DNA from: a virus
IMG/VR virus record: IMGVR_UViG_3300045988_103468
Coordinates: 1-45,912 of that record
Length of the DNA: 45,912 bases
Reading direction: 5' to 3' (one strand)
Positions 28,032-33,131 of this stretch are shown here, in pieces. Position numbers and translations under genes: made by a program. How positions within the stretch are numbered: the stretch's first letter is position 1; each line of letters starts with the position of its first letter. Under the pieces are notes generated by a model. It did not search any database and had not been told where the DNA came from. It saw only the letters and a list, made by a program, of their open reading frames with translations.

Positions 28032-28460
28032 TCACAGGTTTTCCGTTAATTCATCTTGCTTTTTTTCGACTGCACCCATTCTTCGAGAGAGGACTTCACC
28101 ATCACCCTTCTGAGTTAATCGTTCAATGATTGCAGTTTGGTTCGCCACTACTGCAGTCACTTTTGCGAGCTGCTCTTTCAGGGTGTTGATGTAGTCCTGT
28201 GTAAGTGGATCCATCTCCTGAATTTTTGTTGAGTTAGTAATAGGGTTATCTTTTGGGGTTTCCCCGGTTTGGTTTTGAATGATATATCTTGATATTATAT
28301 CGCCATATTTAACCTTTAGCCTTTCTATATGCTCCTCTTTTATTTCTCGTTTCCCATTCATCATTGCTGATATCTGCGATTGAGCTACACCTATAACTTC
28401 GCTTAAATCTTGTTGTTTAAGCTGCATGTCAAAGGCAAACTTCTTAATATCTAATAACAT
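28032..28460 (-). CDS. CI-like repressor (XRE-family HTH)
   Basis: ORF 28032-28916 trimmed to MLLDIKKFAFDMQLKQQDLSEVIGVAQSQISAMMNGKREI (XRE HTH), with a C-terminal coiled-coil-like part. Divergent from the early operon. Confidence 0.8.
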   Translation of the reverse strand: MLLDIKKFAFDMQLKQQDLSEVIGVAQSQISAMMNGKREIKEEHIERLKVKYGDIISRYIIQNQTGETPKDNPITNSTKIQEMDPLTQDYINTLKEQLAKVTAVVANQTAIIERLTQKGDGEVLSRRMGAVEKKQDELTENL

Positions 28461-28510
28461 ATGGAAATTGACAATATTATAATAATTATTTATACAAAAT
28501 ATCTTTATAA

Positions 28511-28529
28511 ATCTTGATAATATCAAGAT
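28511..28529. promoter_or_regulatory. Operator: perfect palindrome ATCTTGATA-A-TATCAAGAT
   Basis: 9-bp arms, flanked by direct AAAATATCT repeats (28496-28504 and 28530-28538). Immediately upstream of the early -7 box. Confidence 0.6.
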
Positions 28530-28537
28530 AAAATATC

Positions 28538-28545
28538 TATATTTG
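28538..28545 (+). promoter_or_regulatory. Early rightward promoter -7 box (TATATTTG)
   Basis: Perfect TAnnTTTG, about 115 nt upstream of ATG 28662. Confidence 0.5.
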
Positions 28546-28661
28546 CAATGTGAAACCCACAAAGCTGATACAAATATACGATTTAAGATGAAAAACGCAA
28601 GCGTGGGGACTGAATATTTGACGATTGTACCTTTTTGAAGGTAATAAAAACGGACAACGCG

Positions 28662-28904
28662 ATGAAAGCAACTTACGACAAATCGAAGATCATGAAGAAC
28701 GCCTGGTACCTTAAAAAGGTACAGCCGGGCAAGAGTTTGGGGGATTGCCTGCGCAAGGCTTGGCGCAACGAGAAGTTGGCGATGCTGACCGCGAAGATCG
28801 AGAACCGCCCGACGGAGCAGCCGAAGGCCACGGAGTACCGCCCCGAACTGCTGAAAGTGCCGACAGGTTTCTATGGTGTCCGAGGAATGTACTATGGTGA
28901 CTAA
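28662..28904 (+). CDS. First early-operon protein (Cro/antirepressor position), function unknown
   Basis: ORF 28635-28904 begins at TTG. The first ATG is at 28662 (MKATYDKSKIMKNAWYLKK...). Confidence 0.55.
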   Translation: MKATYDKSKIMKNAWYLKKVQPGKSLGDCLRKAWRNEKLAMLTAKIENRPTEQPKATEYRPELLKVPTGFYGVRGMYYGD

Positions 28905-28917
28905 AGCACGATGCAAT

Positions 28918-29013
28918 ATGAACGAAGTAATTCAATCGACTGACCGCTTGACGGCACTACTCGAGGAGCAGGCCGCCTGCATTGAGCGGATCATGGCAAT
29001 ACTGGACAAATAA
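28918..29013 (+). CDS. Possible 31-aa ORF
   Basis: Translated by hand: MNEVIQSTDRLTALLEEQAACIERIMAILDK. Fills the gap between neighbouring genes. Confidence 0.3.
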   Translation: MNEVIQSTDRLTALLEEQAACIERIMAILDK

Positions 29014-29014
29014 T

Positions 29015-29302
29015 ATGAATATGAATACTGCAAATCAGCGCGCTGTAAAGTTGCCGTTCCAAGAATATGTTTCTACACTTGGGAAGACTCGCAAAAGTAA
29101 GTTGTGGGCAGAAATTCGTCTTGTGACAGGAAAGGACAGGACAACAATATGGCGATGGGCGCACGGACACACCCGTCCTGACAAGTCAGACAGGGATAAC
29201 ATAGCATTCTGTGTATATAAATTCTCTGAAAATAGGTTACCCGGCGACGCATTATTCCCAGAAGATTATCCATACAAAGGTACCCATGCAAAGGTTAAAT
29301 AA
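29015..29302 (+). CDS. Small DNA-binding-like protein
   Basis: Start at MNMNTANQ. The TGKDRTTIWRWAHGHTRP segment resembles an HTH recognition helix. Confidence 0.5.
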   Translation: MNMNTANQRAVKLPFQEYVSTLGKTRKSKLWAEIRLVTGKDRTTIWRWAHGHTRPDKSDRDNIAFCVYKFSENRLPGDALFPEDYPYKGTHAKVK

Positions 29303-29837: not shown

Positions 29838-30237
29838 ACACAAAATATAACCAACCATGAAAACAATTTATCTCTGGGTTTCAGGCAAAGGCTGGACACC
29901 CTTTCAGTACAATGAACTTTCTGAATTAGCCGCCGAATTTGAGGCGCGCAATATCAAACTGGGCGACGGGTGCGAACTGGGCGACGGGTGCAAACTGGGC
30001 GACGGGTGCGAACTGGGCGACGGGTGCGATGTTCCGAAATCGCTATTTATCAGCGCATCTCGTCATACAGTATCCTATTGGGGTGAGGATGTTATTCAAA
30101 TAGGCTGCAAACGCTACACCATTTCCGAGTGGCAGAAGCATTTCCGAAAAATTGGCGAGGCCGAAGGCTATAGTCCCGAGCAGATGGAGGAATACAAAGG
30201 GTATATAGACCTGATCGCCACCATGCACAAGACGTGG
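29834..30237 (+). repeat. 404-bp direct repeat, copy A
   Basis: Aligned by hand to 41938-42341 (offset 12104) with 8 mismatches. Starts at the stop codon of the upstream gene. Confidence 0.9.
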
Positions 30238-30264
30238 AAGGTTGAGAAGGTAAAGGACAAATAA
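29857..30264 (+). CDS. Hypothetical protein with four LGDGC(E/K/D) hexapeptide repeats, paralogue A
   Basis: 135 aa, near-identical to 41961-42353 except for the last ~10 residues. Confidence 0.75.
   Translation: MKTIYLWVSGKGWTPFQYNELSELAAEFEARNIKLGDGCELGDGCKLGDGCELGDGCDVPKSLFISASRHTVSYWGEDVIQIGCKRYTISEWQKHFRKIGEAEGYSPEQMEEYKGYIDLIATMHKTWKVEKVKDK
29959..30030 (+). repeat. 4 x 18-bp tandem repeat (CTGGGCGACGGGTGCGAA-like)
   Basis: Encodes LGDGCE LGDGCK LGDGCE LGDGCD. The same array occurs at 42063-42134. Confidence 0.9.
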
Positions 30265-30271
30265 CAGCACG

Positions 30272-30382
30272 AGGTGTGTAGCTCAAAGGTAGAGCGGTGC
30301 AGGGATGCGAAATAGAAGCACAGAGGTTGAAAGACCTTGCATTTCCGGGCGCAGGTTGCAGGTTCGAATCCTGCCGCACTTC
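30272..30382 (+). ncRNA. Non-canonical 111-nt tRNA-like element
   Basis: Acceptor AGGTGTG/CGCACTT (two G-U pairs), D-arm GCTC-AAAGGTA-GAGC and T-arm GCAGG-TTCGAAT-CCTGC. No 5-bp stem with a 7-nt anticodon loop could be drawn in the central ~60 nt. Confidence 0.45.
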
Positions 30383-30795
30383 CAAGATAGCCACCGCATA
30401 GGTGAGGGGTTTGATTGCTGGCACTAACCCCGCCGCAAGGCAAAAGCAATTTCTGTGTTCTTTGACACATTGATACACGAGAACCATCCGAGCGGATGTA
30501 AAACCCGGCGAGCGACTTGGCGCAGAAGGGCTGGCAACAGATAAATACCAATGAACGAGCGATGACCCGGAGTAATCCGGAGAGCCGTATTGATTATTAC
30601 GCCTGGTGTGGCTTGACTGCCTATCCAGGCTCTATGGCAGACCTTGCGCACCGTTCTTTCAGCAGTGGGTTATTTCATTTTAGGCGTGAGGTCTGCATCT
30701 TGCCCGCGTGCGTTTTTCGGTGGCGCAGTTTTGAAATGGAGTTTAAAGTTACAGTGCGCGCGGGCTTATTTGCAACACCTTAAAACAATTATACT
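30383..30795 (+). ncRNA. Candidate structured non-coding RNA region
   Basis: No ORF with protein-like composition. Multiple hairpins, including the GNRA-capped CCGGA-GTAA-TCCGG (30567-30580). Confidence 0.3.
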
Positions 30796-30886
30796 ATGGA
30801 GAAGAACACTTTGAGGAAGAGGAGATTTCTATGCTTCGACCTGACGCCCAGGTGGAAAATGTGGAACCAGGATCGAAGACCTGGAG

Positions 30887-31093
30887 GTGCGGCTTGCTAC
30901 ATGCCTTTGCGAGCGCAATGAAGCGGATGGACGCCTTATCGAGCGGGAACACGAGGTATTGGCGCTCACTCAAGCACGTGATACCCTGTACAAGCGCATC
31001 GACGAACTGGAAGGCAGGCTCAGGAAATTCGACCGTACCCGTGGGAAAAGCGGCAAATACATCAAGGGCTATGACGTACGAACCGCAAAGTAA
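30887..31093 (+). CDS. Possible small coiled-coil protein (GTG start)
   Basis: 68 codons with coiled-coil-like EREHEVLALTQARDTLYKRIDELEGRLRKF. There is no in-frame ATG, so the start is uncertain. Confidence 0.4.
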   Translation: MRLATCLCERNEADGRLIEREHEVLALTQARDTLYKRIDELEGRLRKFDRTRGKSGKYIKGYDVRTAK

Positions 31094-31304
31094 GATTCTG
31101 GCCTATCTCAAGGCCGGCGGCAGGCTGACTGTTCGCAAGGCTGAGAGGCTGTACCACACAACGGAGCTGCGCCGGATCATCAGTCGGCTCCGGAAAATGG
31201 GATATTCCATTTGCTCGAACAAACAGAAGGCCGTTACGGAAGACGGGCGGCCGACACAGTTTAACGAGTACTATATGCCACAGGTCGCGGATTCCTGCCA
31301 ATAA
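31071..31304 (+). CDS. Small winged-helix / HTH-like protein
   Basis: Start at MTYEPQSKILAYLKAGGRLTVRKAERLYHTTELRRIISRLRKMGYSI. Confidence 0.6.
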   Translation: MTYEPQSKILAYLKAGGRLTVRKAERLYHTTELRRIISRLRKMGYSICSNKQKAVTEDGRPTQFNEYYMPQVADSCQ

Positions 31305-31320
31305 TCCGCAAATCGCATTT

Positions 31321-31328
31321 TAAGTTTG
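31321..31328 (+). promoter_or_regulatory. -7 promoter box TAAGTTTG upstream of the tRNA unit
   Basis: Perfect TAnnTTTG, about 100 nt upstream of tRNA-Gln. Confidence 0.45.
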
Positions 31329-31429
31329 GTATTTGCCATTGGCCAGTTGTGAAGCCCGCGGATGGTGTGCCGCCGAGATCGAAGCCCTGCGCGGTGGCGC
31401 GGGTGAGTGGAGATTCAGGCGGCTTTTAT

Positions 31430-31501
31430 TGAGCTATGGTGTAATGGTTAACACACCGCCCTTTGGAGGCGGTACTCCCGGTTCGAATCCGGGTAGCTCA
31501 A
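31430..31501 (+). tRNA. tRNA-Gln (anticodon UUG)
   Basis: Hand-folded 72-nt cloverleaf. Acceptor TGAGCTA/TAGCTCA (U1-A72). D-arm GTGT-AATGGTTA-ACAC. Anticodon arm CCGCC-CTTTGGA-GGCGG. T-arm CCCGG-TTCGAAT-CCGGG. CCA is not encoded. Confidence 0.9.
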
Positions 31502-31694
31502 CGGGGTTCTAACCCTAATGTTGTGAGTTTGATCGGGCGCTTGGGCGTCTGTCACAACGGAAGCTGACAGAGGGTATATCCCTCGACAATCCGAGGCTGC
31601 GTGAAGGAAGTAGCAAGGCCGAGGCGGGCTAAGCCCACGAAACGGGAGATAAAGAACGCAAATCGGCGGCGCGAAGCACAGTAACGCCGCCACC

Positions 31695-31725
31695 GCGGGG
31701 GCAGTCAGAAGCCCCCGCTTCTTTT
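31695..31725 (+). terminator. Intrinsic terminator closing the tRNA-Gln unit
   Basis: GCGGGGGC-AGTCAGAA-GCCCCCGC followed by TTCTTTT. Confidence 0.8.
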
Positions 31726-31743
31726 GGATACAATCAAACGACC

Positions 31744-31908
31744 ATGAATAAATATCTTCAAGAGCTCAAAGACAAAGGACTGGTGCCTTTACGGCTCGAC
31801 AACAACACGGTGCTTTGGGTTACACCCGACAAGGCCAATGAGAAGTACAAAACACGCTACCTCAAGAATGCCGAGAGGTCGCGGAGGATGGCATTGAATT
31901 TAGATTAG
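31744..31908 (+). CDS. Hypothetical 54-aa protein
   Basis: Translated by hand: MNKYLQELKDKGLVPLRLDNNTVLWVTPDKANEKYKTRYLKNAERSRRMALNLD. Ends 2 nt before the MTase ATG. Confidence 0.45.
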   Translation: MNKYLQELKDKGLVPLRLDNNTVLWVTPDKANEKYKTRYLKNAERSRRMALNLD

Positions 31909-31910
31909 TT

Positions 31911-33131
31911 ATGAATTACGGATTACCTTATAAGGGTTCTAAGAATAGTATTGCGAAATGGGTTATTTCGAATCTTCCCGCGTCGCATACGTTCGTGGAT
32001 TTGTTCGCCGGAGGATGTGCGGTAACTCACGCTGCCATATTGTCTGGTAAATTCGGACGTTTCATTGCAAACGATATTACGGAATATCCCCAAGTCTTCC
32101 GTGATGCCATCGATGGGAAATACCGGAATGAATGTCGATGGATCAGTCGGGAGGATTTCCTCCGTCTCAAAGATGACGACCCCTACGTGCGTCTTTGCTG
32201 GAGCTTTGGGAACGATATGAATACATATATGTATGCTCCGGAGGTTGAGCGGTTCAAAAAACACATGCACGCGATATTTTCCGCGGGAACGCCCACGAGC
32301 GCGCGGTTGGCATGGAAAGGATTTGTCCGGGAATTTGCAAAAGTCCGTGATAAAATAGGAGAGCTGACGCAAAAGGTGCTGAAGTTGTGCGCAGCGTGCG
32401 ACGTGGCACCTCAATACAATGCGGACGGCACATTGAATACAAAGGCGATACATACAGATGTTTTTCGGGTTAAATCAGCGTATTTGCGAAAATATTTACA
32501 GAACGCCCTGAAATTATCCGGTCTTACGCAAAAAGATGTCGACCGACGCCTTGGGAATTATATGGGTAGGCATTATTTTAGCGAATCTCAATGGATGTTG
32601 CCATCCTCTGAACAATACGAGAAGTTGCAAGAAATTTTACCGGCGTTAACTATTCCGTGGGCGCCCTTAAACGAAAGTCTGCAAAGTCTGGAAAGACTGG
32701 AAAGTCTGGAAAGTCTGGAAAGTCTGCAAAGTCTGCAAAGTCTGGAAAGACTGGAAAGACTGCAAAGTCTGGAAAGACTGGAAAGTCTGCAAAGTCTGGA
32801 AAGACTGAAACTGTCCCGAAAGGATTACAGCGATGTTGCTATACCGCCGGGCGCGACGGTATACTGCGACCCGCCGTATGCTAACACGTCGGGGTATATC
32901 GACGATTTCGACCATGAACGATTTTATAGATGGCTGCGCAGCATGGAATTCCCGGTGTTCGTTTCGGAATATTCCATGCCGGACGACTTTATATGCTTTG
33001 CGAGTATTGACAAAGCATGCACCTATTCATCATCAAAAACGATAAAACGCGTAGAAAAGATGTTCGTACACGAGCGGTGGGCGGATGCTGTGAGGCGTCC
33101 GGATGATAATGTTCAGGGGCGGCTGTTCTAA
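31911..33131 (+). CDS. dam: Dam-like (D12-class) N6-adenine DNA methyltransferase with an inserted tripeptide-repeat segment
   Basis: N-terminal LPYKGSKNSIAKW and FVDLFAGGCAV (motif I). C-terminal VYCDPPYANTSGY (motif IV). 406 aa, longer than typical Dam because of an HTH-like segment plus 15 tripeptide repeats between the motifs. Confidence 0.8.
   Translation: MNYGLPYKGSKNSIAKWVISNLPASHTFVDLFAGGCAVTHAAILSGKFGRFIANDITEYPQVFRDAIDGKYRNECRWISREDFLRLKDDDPYVRLCWSFGNDMNTYMYAPEVERFKKHMHAIFSAGTPTSARLAWKGFVREFAKVRDKIGELTQKVLKLCAACDVAPQYNADGTLNTKAIHTDVFRVKSAYLRKYLQNALKLSGLTQKDVDRRLGNYMGRHYFSESQWMLPSSEQYEKLQEILPALTIPWAPLNESLQSLERLESLESLESLQSLQSLERLERLQSLERLESLQSLERLKLSRKDYSDVAIPPGATVYCDPPYANTSGYIDDFDHERFYRWLRSMEFPVFVSEYSMPDDFICFASIDKACTYSSSKTIKRVEKMFVHERWADAVRRPDDNVQGRLF
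32676..32810 (+). repeat. 15 x 9-bp in-frame tandem repeat (AGTCTGGAA / AGACTGGAA / AGTCTGCAA variants)
   Basis: Counted unit by unit. Encodes SLQ SLE RLE SLE SLE SLQ SLQ SLE RLE RLQ SLE RLE SLQ SLE RLK. Confidence 0.95.

What the first reader, a model, noticed from the sequence alone, without database searches (positions are those of the whole stretch)
30265..30886. Non-canonical 111-nt tRNA-like element followed by ~0.5 kb of ORF-poor, hairpin-dense sequence: candidate large phage ncRNA
Eight nt after the stop of the 135-aa gene lies an element (30272-30382) with three canonical tRNA parts. These are a 7-bp acceptor stem (AGGTGTG/CGCACTT, two G-U pairs), a D-arm (GCTC-AAAGGTA-GAGC) and a T-arm (GCAGG-TTCGAAT-CCTGC). 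Where a 17-nt anticodon arm should be there are about 60 nt. I could not draw any 5-bp stem with a 7-nt loop in that stretch. It can instead form an 8-bp stem (30297-30304 with 30335-30342) or a GNRA-capped hairpin GAGGTT-GAAA-GACCTT (30323-30338). The next ~500 nt contain no ORF with protein-like composition, but they are dense in hairpins. Examples are GGGGTT..AACCCC (30406-30431), CATCC-GAGC-GGATG (30485-30498) and a second GNRA hairpin CCGGA-GTAA-TCCGG (30567-30580). Further examples are GCCTGG..CCAGGC (30601-30630) and a bulged long-range helix GCGCACCG/CGGTGGCGC (30646-30653 with 30718-30726). Large ornate phage RNAs such as GOLLD and ROOL are known to sit next to tRNA genes. I do not know of an equivalent described for Bacteroidota prophages. 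The element could also be a degraded tRNA, an intron-bearing tRNA, or a tRNA mimic.
Basis: partly seen in the sequence, partly recalled or inferred. Interest (0 to 1): 0.78.

Follow-up and report, generated by a model that had tools for sequence, protein, structure and literature searches.

The report
tRNA-headed large structured phage RNA
A temperate gut phage carries a conserved, non-coding, roughly 500-base RNA made of a tRNA-shaped head without a normal anticodon arm joined to a roughly 390-base folded tail, and this RNA matches no described family and has no known function.

Summary
Window 30272-30382 scores as a tRNA (Rfam 43.5 bits, cut-off 29). Its acceptor, D and T arms are intact, but a 56-nt GNRA-capped arm sits where the anticodon arm should be.

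The next ~390 nt (30383-~30775) are non-coding. The same tail occurs in 99 viral contigs and at least 119 human-gut metagenome contigs. Every + frame carries 4-12 stops, and most indels are not multiples of 3. Ten proposed helices, two of them pseudoknots, are 91% paired, against 30-47% when partners are slid. Eighteen pairs show compensatory changes.

The stretch 30796-30886 is not RNA. It is the start of a conserved 98-aa gene that an extra A at 30869 breaks in this window.

In 189 of 200 loci the tail follows a tRNA-shaped head of one of at least six kinds. In 11 it follows a plain hairpin. An HTH_39 gene follows on the same strand in 176 of 178 loci, and true tRNAs follow in the window and all ten loci checked. 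No Rfam family matches the tail.

My reading is a new family of large phage RNA, comparable to GOLLD and ROOL in kind. It is probably cut from the early transcript at the tRNA-like head. That processing step and the function are inferred, not shown.

The parts
30272..30382 (+). tRNA-shaped head. Acceptor stem 30272-30278 with 30375-30381, and discriminator C at 30382. D-arm 30281-30295 and T-arm 30358-30374 with loop UUCGAAU. There is no 5-bp/7-nt anticodon arm.
   Evidence: Rfam tRNA model, 43.5 bits against a cut-off of 29. The minimum-energy fold reproduces the cloverleaf. The acceptor stem covaries across head types: AGGUGUG/CGCACUU, GAGUGCG/CGCACUC, GGGUGCG/CGCACCU and GGGUGAU/AUCACCC.
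30297..30352 (+). Extended arm in place of the anticodon arm. Helix I is 30297-30300 with 30349-30352. Helix II is GGGA/UUCC, 30302-30305 with 30343-30346. Helix III is 30306-30308 with 30339-30341. A 14-nt A-rich bulge GAAAUAGAAGCACA lies at 30309-30322. The arm ends in the GNRA hairpin 30323-30338.
   Evidence: Fold. Helix II changes from GGGA/UUCC to GGAA/UUCC (L065 copy) and to GGGA/UUUC (3 loci). The hairpin changes from GAGGUU-GAAA-GACCUU to GGGGGUU-GCGA-GACCCC and to GGGGGUU-GAGA-UACCCC.
30383..30391 (+). Conserved linker CAAGAUAGC between the head and the tail.
   Evidence: Nearly invariant in alignment A1. 'CAA' also follows the discriminator base in the stand-alone head copies.
30392..30404 (+). 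Hairpin H1, CACC-GCAUA-GGUG.
   Evidence: Two of its 4 pairs change on both sides (C-G to A-U; A-U, G-U and G-C). 98.5% of cells are paired.
30406..30451 (+). Core pseudoknot. Hairpin H2 is GGGGUU..AACCCC, 30406-30411 with 30426-30431. Its loop GAUUGCU (30413-30419) pairs with AGCAAUU (30445-30451). The hairpin GCC-GCAA-GGC (30432-30441) is nested between them.
   Evidence: 100% of cells are paired. The one loop position left free by the search pattern covaries: C-G 35, U-G 21, U-A 12. H2 itself was fixed by the search pattern, so its invariance says nothing.
30452..30596 (+). Central domain, which exists in at least three sequence-divergent versions among phages. The window version has hairpins at 30485-30498 and 30567-30580 and a helix UUGG/CCAA at 30517-30520 with 30548-30551.
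   Evidence: Segment swapping is seen. UUGG/CCAA in the window version corresponds to UAGC/GCUG in the other versions, with 2 compensatory pairs.
30601..30630 (+). Hairpin Hx, GCCUGG..CCAGGC.
   Evidence: Three of its 6 pairs change on both sides (U-A to C-G, G-C to U-A). 97.7% of cells are paired.
30637..30696 (+). Helix Hy, 13 bp, 30637-30649 with 30684-30696. It encloses the loop sequence CGUUCUUUC (30652-30660), which varies only in L072. UCUUUC (30655-30660) can pair with GAAGGG at 30525-30530.
   Evidence: Five of its 13 pairs are compensatory and 92.4% of cells are paired. The loop pairing is 98% paired but changes on one side only.
30702..30772 (+). Terminal long stem GCCCGCGUGCG/UGCGCGCGGGC (30702-30712 with 30755-30765), followed by the U-rich UUAUUUG. 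This is the likely 3' end of the RNA.
   Evidence: The U-tract is strong in L005 (9 U) and L072 (8 U), weak in the window, and absent in the L027 and L051 types.
30796..31093 (+). Conserved 98-aa coiled-coil-like gene, broken in this window by an extra A at 30869. It is not part of the RNA.
31074..31304 (+). HTH_39 winged-helix gene, the constant downstream partner of the RNA.
   Evidence: Pfam PF14090, E = 3.4e-10. Present on the same strand in 176 of 178 loci.
31430..31502 (+). Canonical tRNA-Gln(UUG). A true tRNA lies within about 1 kb downstream of the RNA in the window and in all ten related loci checked.

Best explanation
The locus holds two adjacent RNA modules on the + strand. They lie inside the rightward early operon of a temperate gut phage, probably one that infects Bacteroidota.

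**Module 1: the head (30272-30382).** It is a tRNA-shaped RNA with its acceptor stem, D/T elbow and T-loop intact. Its anticodon arm is replaced by a long GNRA-capped arm. It therefore cannot decode, but it can still be recognised by enzymes that read tRNA shape.

**Module 2: the tail (30383-~30775).** It is a multi-helix RNA of about 390 nt with at least one pseudoknot, a swappable central domain, and a terminal stem that acts as a terminator in some lineages.

**Likely working (inferred, not shown).**
- The operon transcript is cut by host RNase P at the 5' side of the head.
- It is cut by RNase Z after the discriminator base, because no CCA is encoded.
- These cuts would release a stable tRNA-like RNA and give the tail a defined 5' end.
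- The tail would then act in trans as a folded RNA, possibly together with the HTH_39 protein that always follows it. This would be in the manner of the large phage RNAs GOLLD and ROOL, whose functions are also unknown.

**Shown versus inferred.** Non-coding status, conservation, strand, helices and modular make-up are shown. Processing, stability and trans action are inferred.
For: **Head**
- It is tRNA-like: Rfam 43.5 bits, and the fold gives a cloverleaf.
- Its acceptor stem shows compensatory changes at four positions across head types.
- Stand-alone copies exist in L065/L112 and L234. Their acceptor stems, and in L065/L112 also the D and T arms, have changed in a compensatory way, while the insert keeps the same architecture.

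**Tail: how widespread it is**
- Its core motif is in 99 IMG/VR contigs and at least 119 human-gut metagenome contigs.
- These give 74 unique tail sequences, 72 of them true homologues in 14 clusters.

**Tail: non-coding**
- Every + frame has 4-12 stops in every lineage, and most indels are not multiples of three.

**Tail: structured**
- 66 proposed pairs are 90.8% paired, against 30-47% when the partners are slid.
- 18 pairs show compensatory change, against 10.1 +/- 1.4 in shuffles (0 of 500 shuffles reach 18).
- G-U pairs sit on the + strand. The + strand folds to -130 kcal/mol and the - strand to -115.

**Modular make-up and setting**
- 189 of 200 loci have a T-arm-bearing head directly before the tail, and 11 have a plain hairpin.
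- An HTH_39 gene follows in 176 of 178 loci.
- True tRNAs follow in all ten related loci checked and in the window.
- The RNA starts 7-9 nt after the stop codon of whichever gene lies upstream. This fits co-transcription followed by processing.

**Precedent**
- GOLLD and ROOL lie near tRNA islands in phages, and GOLLD sometimes carries covalently linked tRNAs (PMC12286853).
Against: - There are no expression or end-mapping data.
- Folding energies are not better than shuffled sequence.
- The sequences fall into only about 12-14 lineages. An unguided scan for covarying columns also returns many spurious 3-bp stacks, so short helices and the UCUUUC pseudoknot are not secure.
- Every homologue was found through one fixed 26-nt motif, so the true range of the family is unknown and H2 is uninformative.
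- In the L005/L027 lineage the acceptor stem has one or two mismatches.
- 11 loci do without a tRNA-like head, so the head is not essential to the tail.
- The terminal U-tract is absent in some lineages. There the RNA may simply be a 5' leader.
Confidence: 0.6

Rival explanations
1. The roughly 390-nt tail is a cis-acting 5' leader, either an attenuator or a sensor. It would control read-through or translation of the downstream HTH_39 operon rather than act as a free RNA.
For: - An HTH_39 gene follows on the same strand in 176 of 178 loci, either directly or after the 98-aa gene.
- The RNA ends in a GC-rich stem with a U-tract just before the gene in the window, L005 and L072 lineages.
- Upstream genes vary while the RNA-HTH_39 pair stays together.
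Against: - The U-tract is missing in the L027, L051 and L053 lineages.
- I did not identify an alternative antiterminator pairing.
- The most conserved part, the 70-nt pseudoknot core, lies about 350 nt from the gene start.
- In most loci another gene separates the RNA from HTH_39.
- The conserved CCUUAAAA before the start codon resembles the leaders of many other genes in this phage, so it is not specific to this RNA.
Confidence: 0.2
2. [quoted passage not shown] Theta (HDV-like) ribozymes do this for tRNAs of gut Bacteroidota phages.
For: - Its position is right: it sits directly at the 3' end of a tRNA-shaped RNA.
- It has a hairpin whose loop forms a pseudoknot around a nested GNRA hairpin. 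The strand order P1-5', P2-5', P1-3', P4, A-rich junction, P2-3' matches an HDV-like fold.
- There is precedent: 1753 tRNA-associated theta ribozymes, about 90% of them in phages with Bacteroidota hosts (PMC10879173).
Against: - Only 6 nt (30420-30425) lie between the would-be P2-5' and P1-3' strands, so P3, L3 and P1.1 cannot form.
- The first pair is G-C rather than the usual G-U.
- The candidate catalytic C (30441) is a U in the L005-type lineage.
- The would-be cleavage site at 30406 is 24 nt from the head's 3' end, not within 5 nt.
- No HDV, hatchet, pistol or twister family matches, even at E up to 10.
Confidence: 0.08
3. The head is a real tRNA-Gly(UCC) gene interrupted by a 41-45-nt intron. 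The intron would be removed to give a decoding tRNA.
For: - ARAGORN in intron mode calls tRNA-Gly(tcc) in the window, in the L065 stand-alone copy and in L234, with the insert in nearly the same place.
- UUUCCGG and its flanks are conserved in those copies while the other arms have changed.
- The stand-alone copy in L065 sits among true tRNA genes.
- As in archaeal and eukaryal pre-tRNAs, the insert pairs with the would-be anticodon.
Against: - There is no bulge-helix-bulge motif. The 4-bp helix is flanked by 1-nt and 2-nt loops on one end and a 1-nt bulge on the other.
- 41 nt is far too short for a group I intron, and Rfam finds no intron or ribozyme.
- From general knowledge, bacteria have no tRNA splicing endonuclease.
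- The insert lies before position 32, and positions 37-38 would be G G.
- Three loci carry UUUUCGG, which would change the anticodon from Gly to Glu but keeps the pairing as G-U.
- The other head types carry unrelated inserts of about 30-140 nt, with arbitrary 'anticodons'.
Confidence: 0.06
4. The locus is a decayed tRNA pseudogene followed by spacer DNA or an unrecognised small protein gene such as ORF 30517-30783.
For: - Default ARAGORN does not call the element.
- Folding energies are no better than shuffled sequence.
- The window has an 88-aa ORF at 30517-30783.
Against: - Compensatory changes keep the acceptor, the T-arm and the inner hairpin of the head.
- The 88-aa ORF is not conserved. 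Other lineages have 4-12 stops in every + frame and many 1-2-nt indels.
- The core is 82-89% identical across lineages whose neighbouring protein has dropped to as low as 42% identity.
Confidence: 0.02

Closest known systems
GOLLD (RF01998) and ROOL (RF03087), large ornate RNAs of phages and prophages
   Same: - They are several hundred nucleotides long, with many helices and pseudoknots.
- They are encoded by phages and prophages, next to tRNA genes.
- GOLLD sometimes has tRNAs covalently linked in its variable region (PMC12286853; PMC5737381).
- Like GOLLD, this RNA has a conserved part and a variable part.
- Their functions are also unknown.
   Different: - Neither Rfam model matches, at E up to 10 in the window or at E up to 1 in four other lineages.
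- This RNA is smaller: about 390 nt for the tail and about 500-600 nt with the head.
- The linked element is not a true tRNA but a tRNA shape whose anticodon arm has been replaced.
- The hosts appear to be gut Bacteroidota. From memory, GOLLD and ROOL are known mainly from Lactobacillales, Actinomycetota and rumen or marine samples.
- Whether this RNA forms oligomers has not been tested.
Theta (minimal HDV-like) ribozymes at the 3' ends of tRNAs of gut phages (PMC10879173)
   Same: - They are structured RNA elements placed directly at the 3' end of a tRNA-shaped RNA in gut phages.
- About 90% of the predicted hosts are Bacteroidota.
- The fold involves a pseudoknot.
- The tRNAs lack an encoded CCA.
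   Different: - The HDV fold cannot be drawn here: there is no room for P3/L3, no G-U at the cleavage site, and the candidate catalytic C is not conserved.
- The element continues for about 390 nt rather than about 60 nt.
tRNA-shaped non-decoding RNAs: the tmRNA tRNA-like domain, bacterial Y RNA YrlA, MALAT1 mascRNA, and T4 RNAC/RNAD from the T4 tRNA cluster
   Same: - They keep the acceptor/T-arm and elbow of a tRNA but lack a working anticodon arm.
- mascRNA is, from memory, released by RNase P and RNase Z from a longer transcript, which also defines the end of the neighbouring long RNA.
[quoted passage not shown]
   Different: - ARAGORN finds no tmRNA, and Rfam gives no YrlA or tmRNA match.
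- In YrlA, from memory, the ends of the RNA lie on the anticodon side. Here they are at the acceptor stem, as in a true tRNA.
- No homology to the T4 RNAs was tested.
Processed regulatory RNAs of temperate phages: P4 CI RNA and P1/P7 C4 RNA
   Same: They are small folded RNAs cut out of the untranslated part of an early or immunity operon by RNase P.
   Different: - Those RNAs are about 70 nt long and act by base-pairing with sites in the same operon.
- I did not look for complementary target sites here, and this RNA is five to seven times larger.

Membership tests
tRNA (Rfam RF00005) | Score at or above the family's gathering cut-off | tested here: met
   43.5 bits against a cut-off of 29, E = 4.4e-06.
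tRNA (Rfam RF00005) | 7-bp acceptor stem, D-arm with GG in the loop, and T-arm with a UUCRANY loop | tested here: met
   AGGUGUG/CGCACUU, GCUC-AAAGGUA-GAGC and GCAGG-UUCGAAU-CCUGC. The acceptor stem covaries across head types.
tRNA (Rfam RF00005) | 5-bp anticodon stem with a 7-nt loop that presents an anticodon | tested here: not met
   48 nt occupy the place of 9 model positions. The would-be anticodon is paired within a 4-bp helix. Default ARAGORN gives no call.
Intron-containing tRNA (archaeal/eukaryal bulge-helix-bulge type, or bacterial group I type) | Either a bulge-helix-bulge motif (two 3-nt bulges separated by 4 bp) at the exon-intron junctions, or a group I core of at least about 200 nt | tested here: not met
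   The loops flanking the 4-bp helix are 1, 2 and 1 nt. The insert is 41 nt, and no Rfam intron family matches.
Intron-containing tRNA | Anticodon conserved among copies | tested here: inconclusive
   UCC is kept in the window, L065 and L234 copies, but three loci have UUC. Both variants keep the pairing to the insert.
GOLLD (RF01998) and ROOL (RF03087) | Match to the family covariance model | tested here: not met
   Neither model matches at E up to 10 in window 30200-31800, or at E up to 1 in L072, L027, L005 and L065.
GOLLD (RF01998) and ROOL (RF03087) | Large multi-helix RNA with pseudoknots, phage-encoded, next to tRNA genes | tested here: met
   Ten helices, two of them proposed pseudoknots. 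The phage setting is shown. tRNAs lie within about 1 kb.
GOLLD (RF01998) and ROOL (RF03087) | Assembly into homo-oligomeric cages | not testable with these tools
   This needs cryo-EM or sizing of the in vitro transcript.
Theta / HDV-like self-cleaving ribozyme | Nested double pseudoknot with P1, P1.1, P2, P3/L3 and P4 | tested here: not met
   P1, P2 and P4 analogues can be drawn, but only 6 nt (30420-30425) are available for P3, L3 and P1.1.
Theta / HDV-like self-cleaving ribozyme | Cleavage site (G1 in a G-U pair) within 5 nt of the tRNA 3' end, and a catalytic C at the start of J4/2 | tested here: not met
   The would-be G1 (30406) is 24 nt from the head's 3' end and pairs with C. The candidate C (30441) is U in 7 of 68 distinct tail sequences (the L005-type lineage). 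The criteria are taken from PMC10879173.
tmRNA | tRNA-like domain split around a tag reading frame | tested here: not met
   Default ARAGORN finds no tmRNA. At a relaxed threshold it gives only a spurious permuted call on the opposite strand, over the tRNA-Gln. Rfam gives no match.
Transcription-attenuating cis-regulatory leader | Terminator immediately upstream of the regulated gene, with a mutually exclusive antiterminator | tested here: inconclusive
   A terminal stem with a U-tract is present in some lineages and the U-tract is absent in others. I did not search systematically for alternative pairings.

The most novel reading that the evidence does not exclude
The tail would be a new class of large phage RNA machine that works with or on tRNAs, either as a ribozyme or as a self-assembling particle like the ROOL and GOLLD cages. 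Its interchangeable tRNA-shaped heads, whose anticodon arms are replaced by diverse inserts, would serve as handles that bring it to tRNA-binding enzymes or to the ribosome.
Probability: 0.12. Interest if true: 0.9.

Novelty: new variant of a known kind. Interest (0 to 1): 0.72.

Why it matters
- Large, intricately folded bacterial and phage RNAs are rare. The few known ones, such as group I and II introns, RNase P, OLE, GOLLD, ROOL and raiA, have each turned out to be catalytic or architecturally remarkable.
- This would be a further family, apparently from phages of gut Bacteroidota. It is common enough to be studied: more than 200 contigs carry it.
- It has an unusual feature. A tRNA-shaped head is fused to the RNA and has been exchanged repeatedly between lineages, while the tail and the partner HTH_39 gene stay constant.
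- That gives concrete experiments: cleavage by RNase P and RNase Z, binding by the HTH_39 protein, and tests for oligomer formation.
- It also adds a second kind of structured element placed at tRNA 3' ends in gut phages, besides theta ribozymes.
- The head family on its own, a tRNA shape with a 41-45-nt arm, is a candidate tRNA mimic that default tRNA finders miss.

Tried and rejected
**Known RNA families**
- Rfam at the gathering threshold and at E up to 10 found only tRNA and chance-level matches in 30200-31800.
- The same was true in four other lineages.

**Theta / HDV-like ribozyme**
- The fold was mapped by hand after reading PMC10879173 and rejected, because there is no room for P3/L3.

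**tmRNA**
- None is called at the default ARAGORN setting.
- A relaxed run gives only a spurious permuted call on the opposite strand.

**Attachment site**
- The integrase is at 182-1552, about 29 kb away.
- The element sits at the same internal position in phage contigs of 24-62 kb.

**Protein coding**: rejected.

**Host identification led nowhere**
- GenBank phages gave no match to 18.5 kb of structural genes.
- They gave only a partial match of the upstream gene, in an unannotated faecal phage.
- The scan of GTDB species-representative genomes gave two chance hits, in Aminobacter and Dehalococcoidia. The tail profile does not confirm either one.
- An exact look-up of the HTH_39 protein found one 1.6-kb contig.

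**HTH_39 protein**
- No solved structure is related by sequence.
- No paper describes its function.

**Structure methods with limits**
- An unguided scan for covarying column pairs returned many spurious 3-bp stacks, because the sequences fall into few lineages. I used it for only one extra helix.
- RNAalifold on the whole MAFFT alignment gave a fragmentary structure, because the central domain is not alignable between versions.

**RNase P RNA resemblance**
- I noticed from memory a 10-nt identity (GAUUGCUGGC) with E. coli RNase P RNA.
- I judged it to be chance, because Rfam's RNase P models do not match.

**Published catalogues**
- The published catalogue of about 10,000 viral structured-RNA candidates holds motifs of only 29-151 nt (PMC10690425).
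- Pieces of this RNA could be in it, but I could not check.
Full report
**1. What is at the coordinates**

The window is a temperate tailed phage.
- It has a tyrosine integrase at 182-1552, with Phage_int_SAM_5 and Arm-DNA-bind_5 domains.
- The major head protein and large terminase lie on the - strand.
- A rightward early block holds a LuxR-type regulator, ERF recombinase, SSB and two DNA methylases.
- None of 37 genes has a Shine-Dalgarno motif, and their leaders are 42% A. Together with the integrase type, this fits a Bacteroidota host. No direct host evidence was obtained.

The finding lies in the early block, between a 135-aa gene that ends at 30264 and the next genes.

**2. The tRNA-like element**

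- Rfam's tRNA model matches 30272-30382 at 43.5 bits (cut-off 29), with 48 nt in place of 9 model positions.
- Default ARAGORN misses it. In intron mode ARAGORN calls tRNA-Gly(tcc) with a 41-nt insert before position 32.
- The minimum-energy fold gives a cloverleaf whose fourth arm is long. It has helix GUGC/GCGC, then GGGA/UUCC, then UGC/GCA, then a 14-nt A-rich bulge, and ends in the hairpin GAGGUU-GAAA-GACCUU.
- The energy is no better than for shuffled sequence (z = -0.27). The single sequence proves nothing on its own.

**3. Relatives of the element and of the stretch behind it**

- A 38-nt piece of the element occurs in 40 IMG/VR contigs.
- Comparison of those contigs showed a mosaic.
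  - 30260-30450 is always kept.
  - 30450-30593 is replaced in many contigs by a different segment of similar length.
  - 30593-30816 is kept.
  - Genes upstream come and go.
- The alignment showed that the window has one extra base at 30869. Every other version carries an intact 98-aa ORF equal to 30796-31093.

**4. The tail is a widespread non-coding family**

- The motif GGGGUUUGAUNGCUGGCANUAACCCC (30406-31) is in 99 viral contigs.
- A looser form of it is in at least 119 human-gut metagenome contigs.
- In 185,579 species-representative genomes there were only two hits. The tail profile does not confirm either as a homologue.
- The 221 matched stretches give 74 unique tail sequences. Of these, 72 are true homologues in 14 clusters, and their tails are 368-484 nt long.
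- In twelve representative sequences from these clusters every + frame has 4-12 stops, and most indels are not multiples of three.
- Rfam has no match for the tail, in the window at E up to 10 or in four other lineages at E up to 1.

**5. Structure of the tail**

The structure was worked out from alignment A1, folds of single sequences and inspection. The elements, in order:
- a conserved linker, CAAGAUAGC;
- hairpin H1;
- hairpin H2, whose loop pairs with a strand downstream of a nested GCC-GCAA-GGC hairpin, forming a pseudoknot;
- a central domain that exists in at least three non-alignable versions;
- hairpin Hx;
- a 13-bp helix Hy that encloses the loop sequence CGUUCUUUC, which varies only in L072;
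- a long terminal stem.

Pair counts on 68 distinct sequences:
- The 66 pairs are 90.8% paired, against 30-47% when the partners are slid by 1-3 columns.
- 18 pairs change on both sides, against 10.1 +/- 1.4 in shuffles (0 of 500 shuffles reach 18).
- H1, the pseudoknot, Hx and Hy each carry compensatory changes.
- A further helix is UUGG/CCAA in the window version and UAGC/GCUG in the other versions.

Caveats:
- H2 was fixed by the search pattern.
- The sequences form few lineages, so short stacks can covary by descent alone.
- The pairing of UCUUUC with GAARGR changes on one side only.
- Many G-U pairs lie on the + strand, which folds 15 kcal/mol better than the - strand. This points to transcription in the direction of the flanking genes.
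It shows no compensation and overlaps Hy.

**6. Head and tail are separate modules**

In 189 of 200 loci the tail directly follows a T-arm and acceptor strand. In most of these a matching 5' acceptor strand and a D-arm lie upstream. The heads, however, differ.

| Head type | Length | Notes |
|---|---|---|
| Window type | 110 nt | 41-nt insert |
| L051 type | 94 nt | |
| L072 type | 97-98 nt | different acceptor (GGGUGAU/AUCACCC) and T-arm (CCGGG/CCCGG) |
| L050 type | 119 nt | |
| L065 type | 196 nt | D-arm like that of tRNA-Leu |
| L049 type | 207 nt | D-arm like that of tRNA-Leu |

These types are described.
- Acceptor pairs 1:72, 2:71, 6:67 and 7:66 change in a compensatory way.
- Eleven loci have only a 9-10-bp hairpin in place of the head.
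- Conversely, the window-type head also occurs on its own.
  - In L065/L112 it sits beside tRNA-Gln. In L234 it sits directly before a gene.
  - The acceptor stem differs in both copies, and in L065/L112 the D and T arms differ as well.
  - The insert architecture is the same, and the inner hairpin covaries: GAAA, GCGA and GAGA loops.
- So the head is a gene family of its own and is under selection for tRNA shape.

**7. Neighbourhood**

- An HTH_39 winged-helix gene follows the RNA on the same strand in 176 of 178 loci, at 42-100% identity. It comes either directly or after the 98-aa gene.
- True tRNA genes follow within about 1 kb in all ten related loci checked and in the window.
- The upstream gene varies, but the RNA always starts within 7-9 nt of its stop codon.
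- The U-tract after the terminal stem is strong in L005 and L072, weak in the window, and absent in the L027 and L051 types.

**8. Interpretation**

- The head keeps what RNase P, RNase Z and other shape-reading enzymes need, and it lacks what decoding needs.
- No CCA is encoded. 'CAA' follows the discriminator base in all copies.
- The simplest working model is that the early transcript is cut at both sides of the head. This would release a tRNA mimic and a tail of about 390 nt with defined ends.
- This is the arrangement known, from memory, for MALAT1 and mascRNA. It is close to GOLLD RNAs with linked tRNAs (PMC12286853).
- What the tail does is unknown. The constant HTH_39 partner suggests either a ribonucleoprotein or a leader role.

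Rivals considered:
- **Intron reading.** I rate it low. There is no splicing motif, a UCC-to-UUC variant keeps the pairing rather than the identity, and the other head types carry unrelated inserts.
- **Theta-ribozyme reading.** It is attractive because of the position and the published precedent (PMC10879173). It fails because there is no room for P3/L3 and the catalytic C is not conserved.

**9. Novelty**

- No Rfam family matches the tail.
- No paper in the searchable library describes it.
- A catalogue of viral structured-RNA candidates holds only motifs of 29-151 nt (PMC10690425). It might contain fragments of this RNA.
- I therefore class it as a new family of a known kind, the large structured phage RNAs found next to tRNA genes. 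Its new feature is the exchangeable tRNA-shaped head.

Noticed in passing
window 30869 (within 30796-31093): An extra A, absent from all 25 other versions of the region, splits a conserved 98-aa coiled-coil-like ORF into two overlapping ORFs (30796-30921 and 30887-31093). It could be a sequencing or assembly error, or a recent pseudogene.
   Followed up: yes
window 29955-30029 (inside gene 29857-30264): There is an 18-nt tandem repeat that encodes LGDGC(E/K), with 4 copies in the window. Blast matches against related contigs suggest many more copies in some of them, for example L011, L006 and L010, but exact numbers were not counted. Pfam sees a weak hexapeptide-repeat match, below its cut-off. 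This is a length-variable repeat protein directly upstream of the RNA.
   Followed up: partly
window 32728-32810 (inside the D12 methylase gene 31911-33131): A second length-variable repeat encodes SLESLESLQSLQSLERLE... in the middle of the N6-adenine methyltransferase. Related contigs differ here in length and register.
   Followed up: no
L065:3824-3937 (+), the same element in L112, and L234 (- strand): These are stand-alone copies of the window-type tRNA-like RNA, with a 43-45-nt insert. The acceptor stem differs in each, and in L065/L112 the D and T arms differ too. They are not fused to the tail. The L065 copy lies next to tRNA-Gln, 1094 nt downstream of that phage's own tail RNA.
   Followed up: partly
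L042:6987-7094 and L045:990-1082: Two unrelated viral contigs carry other tRNA-shaped elements with the same D-arm and T-loop sequences. One has a 42-nt stretch and the other a 27-nt stretch, the latter with a UUCG hairpin, where the anticodon loop should be. Neither is followed by the tail RNA. ARAGORN calls the L045 element a 93-nt tRNA-Gly(ccc).
   Followed up: partly
window 31503-31743: A 240-nt non-coding stretch lies after tRNA-Gln. It is GC-rich, has several hairpins, and ends in a clean intrinsic terminator (31695-31718 plus a U-tract). In some related contigs about 400 nt are inserted just upstream of tRNA-Gln (L003, L029, L012, L040). This may be further tRNA or tRNA-like genes.
   Followed up: no
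L225:~900-1000: This is a truncated window-type head. The sequence follows the window up to GGUGCAGGGAUGCAAAAUAGAAG and then breaks into unrelated sequence. It shows that rearrangements happen inside the insert.
   Followed up: no
window, whole: None of 37 genes has a Shine-Dalgarno motif. Many start codons are preceded by YUAAAAC-like A-rich leaders. These include the CCUUAAAAC after the RNA, so that conserved motif is probably a general translation-start feature of this phage and not part of the RNA.
   Followed up: partly
window 28032-28916 (-) and 28635-29302 (+): A divergent regulatory region lies about 1.5 kb upstream of the RNA. It has an XRE-type repressor-like ORF on the - strand, facing small rightward ORFs. 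This places the RNA in the rightward early operon. The domain assignment is by eye only.
   Followed up: no
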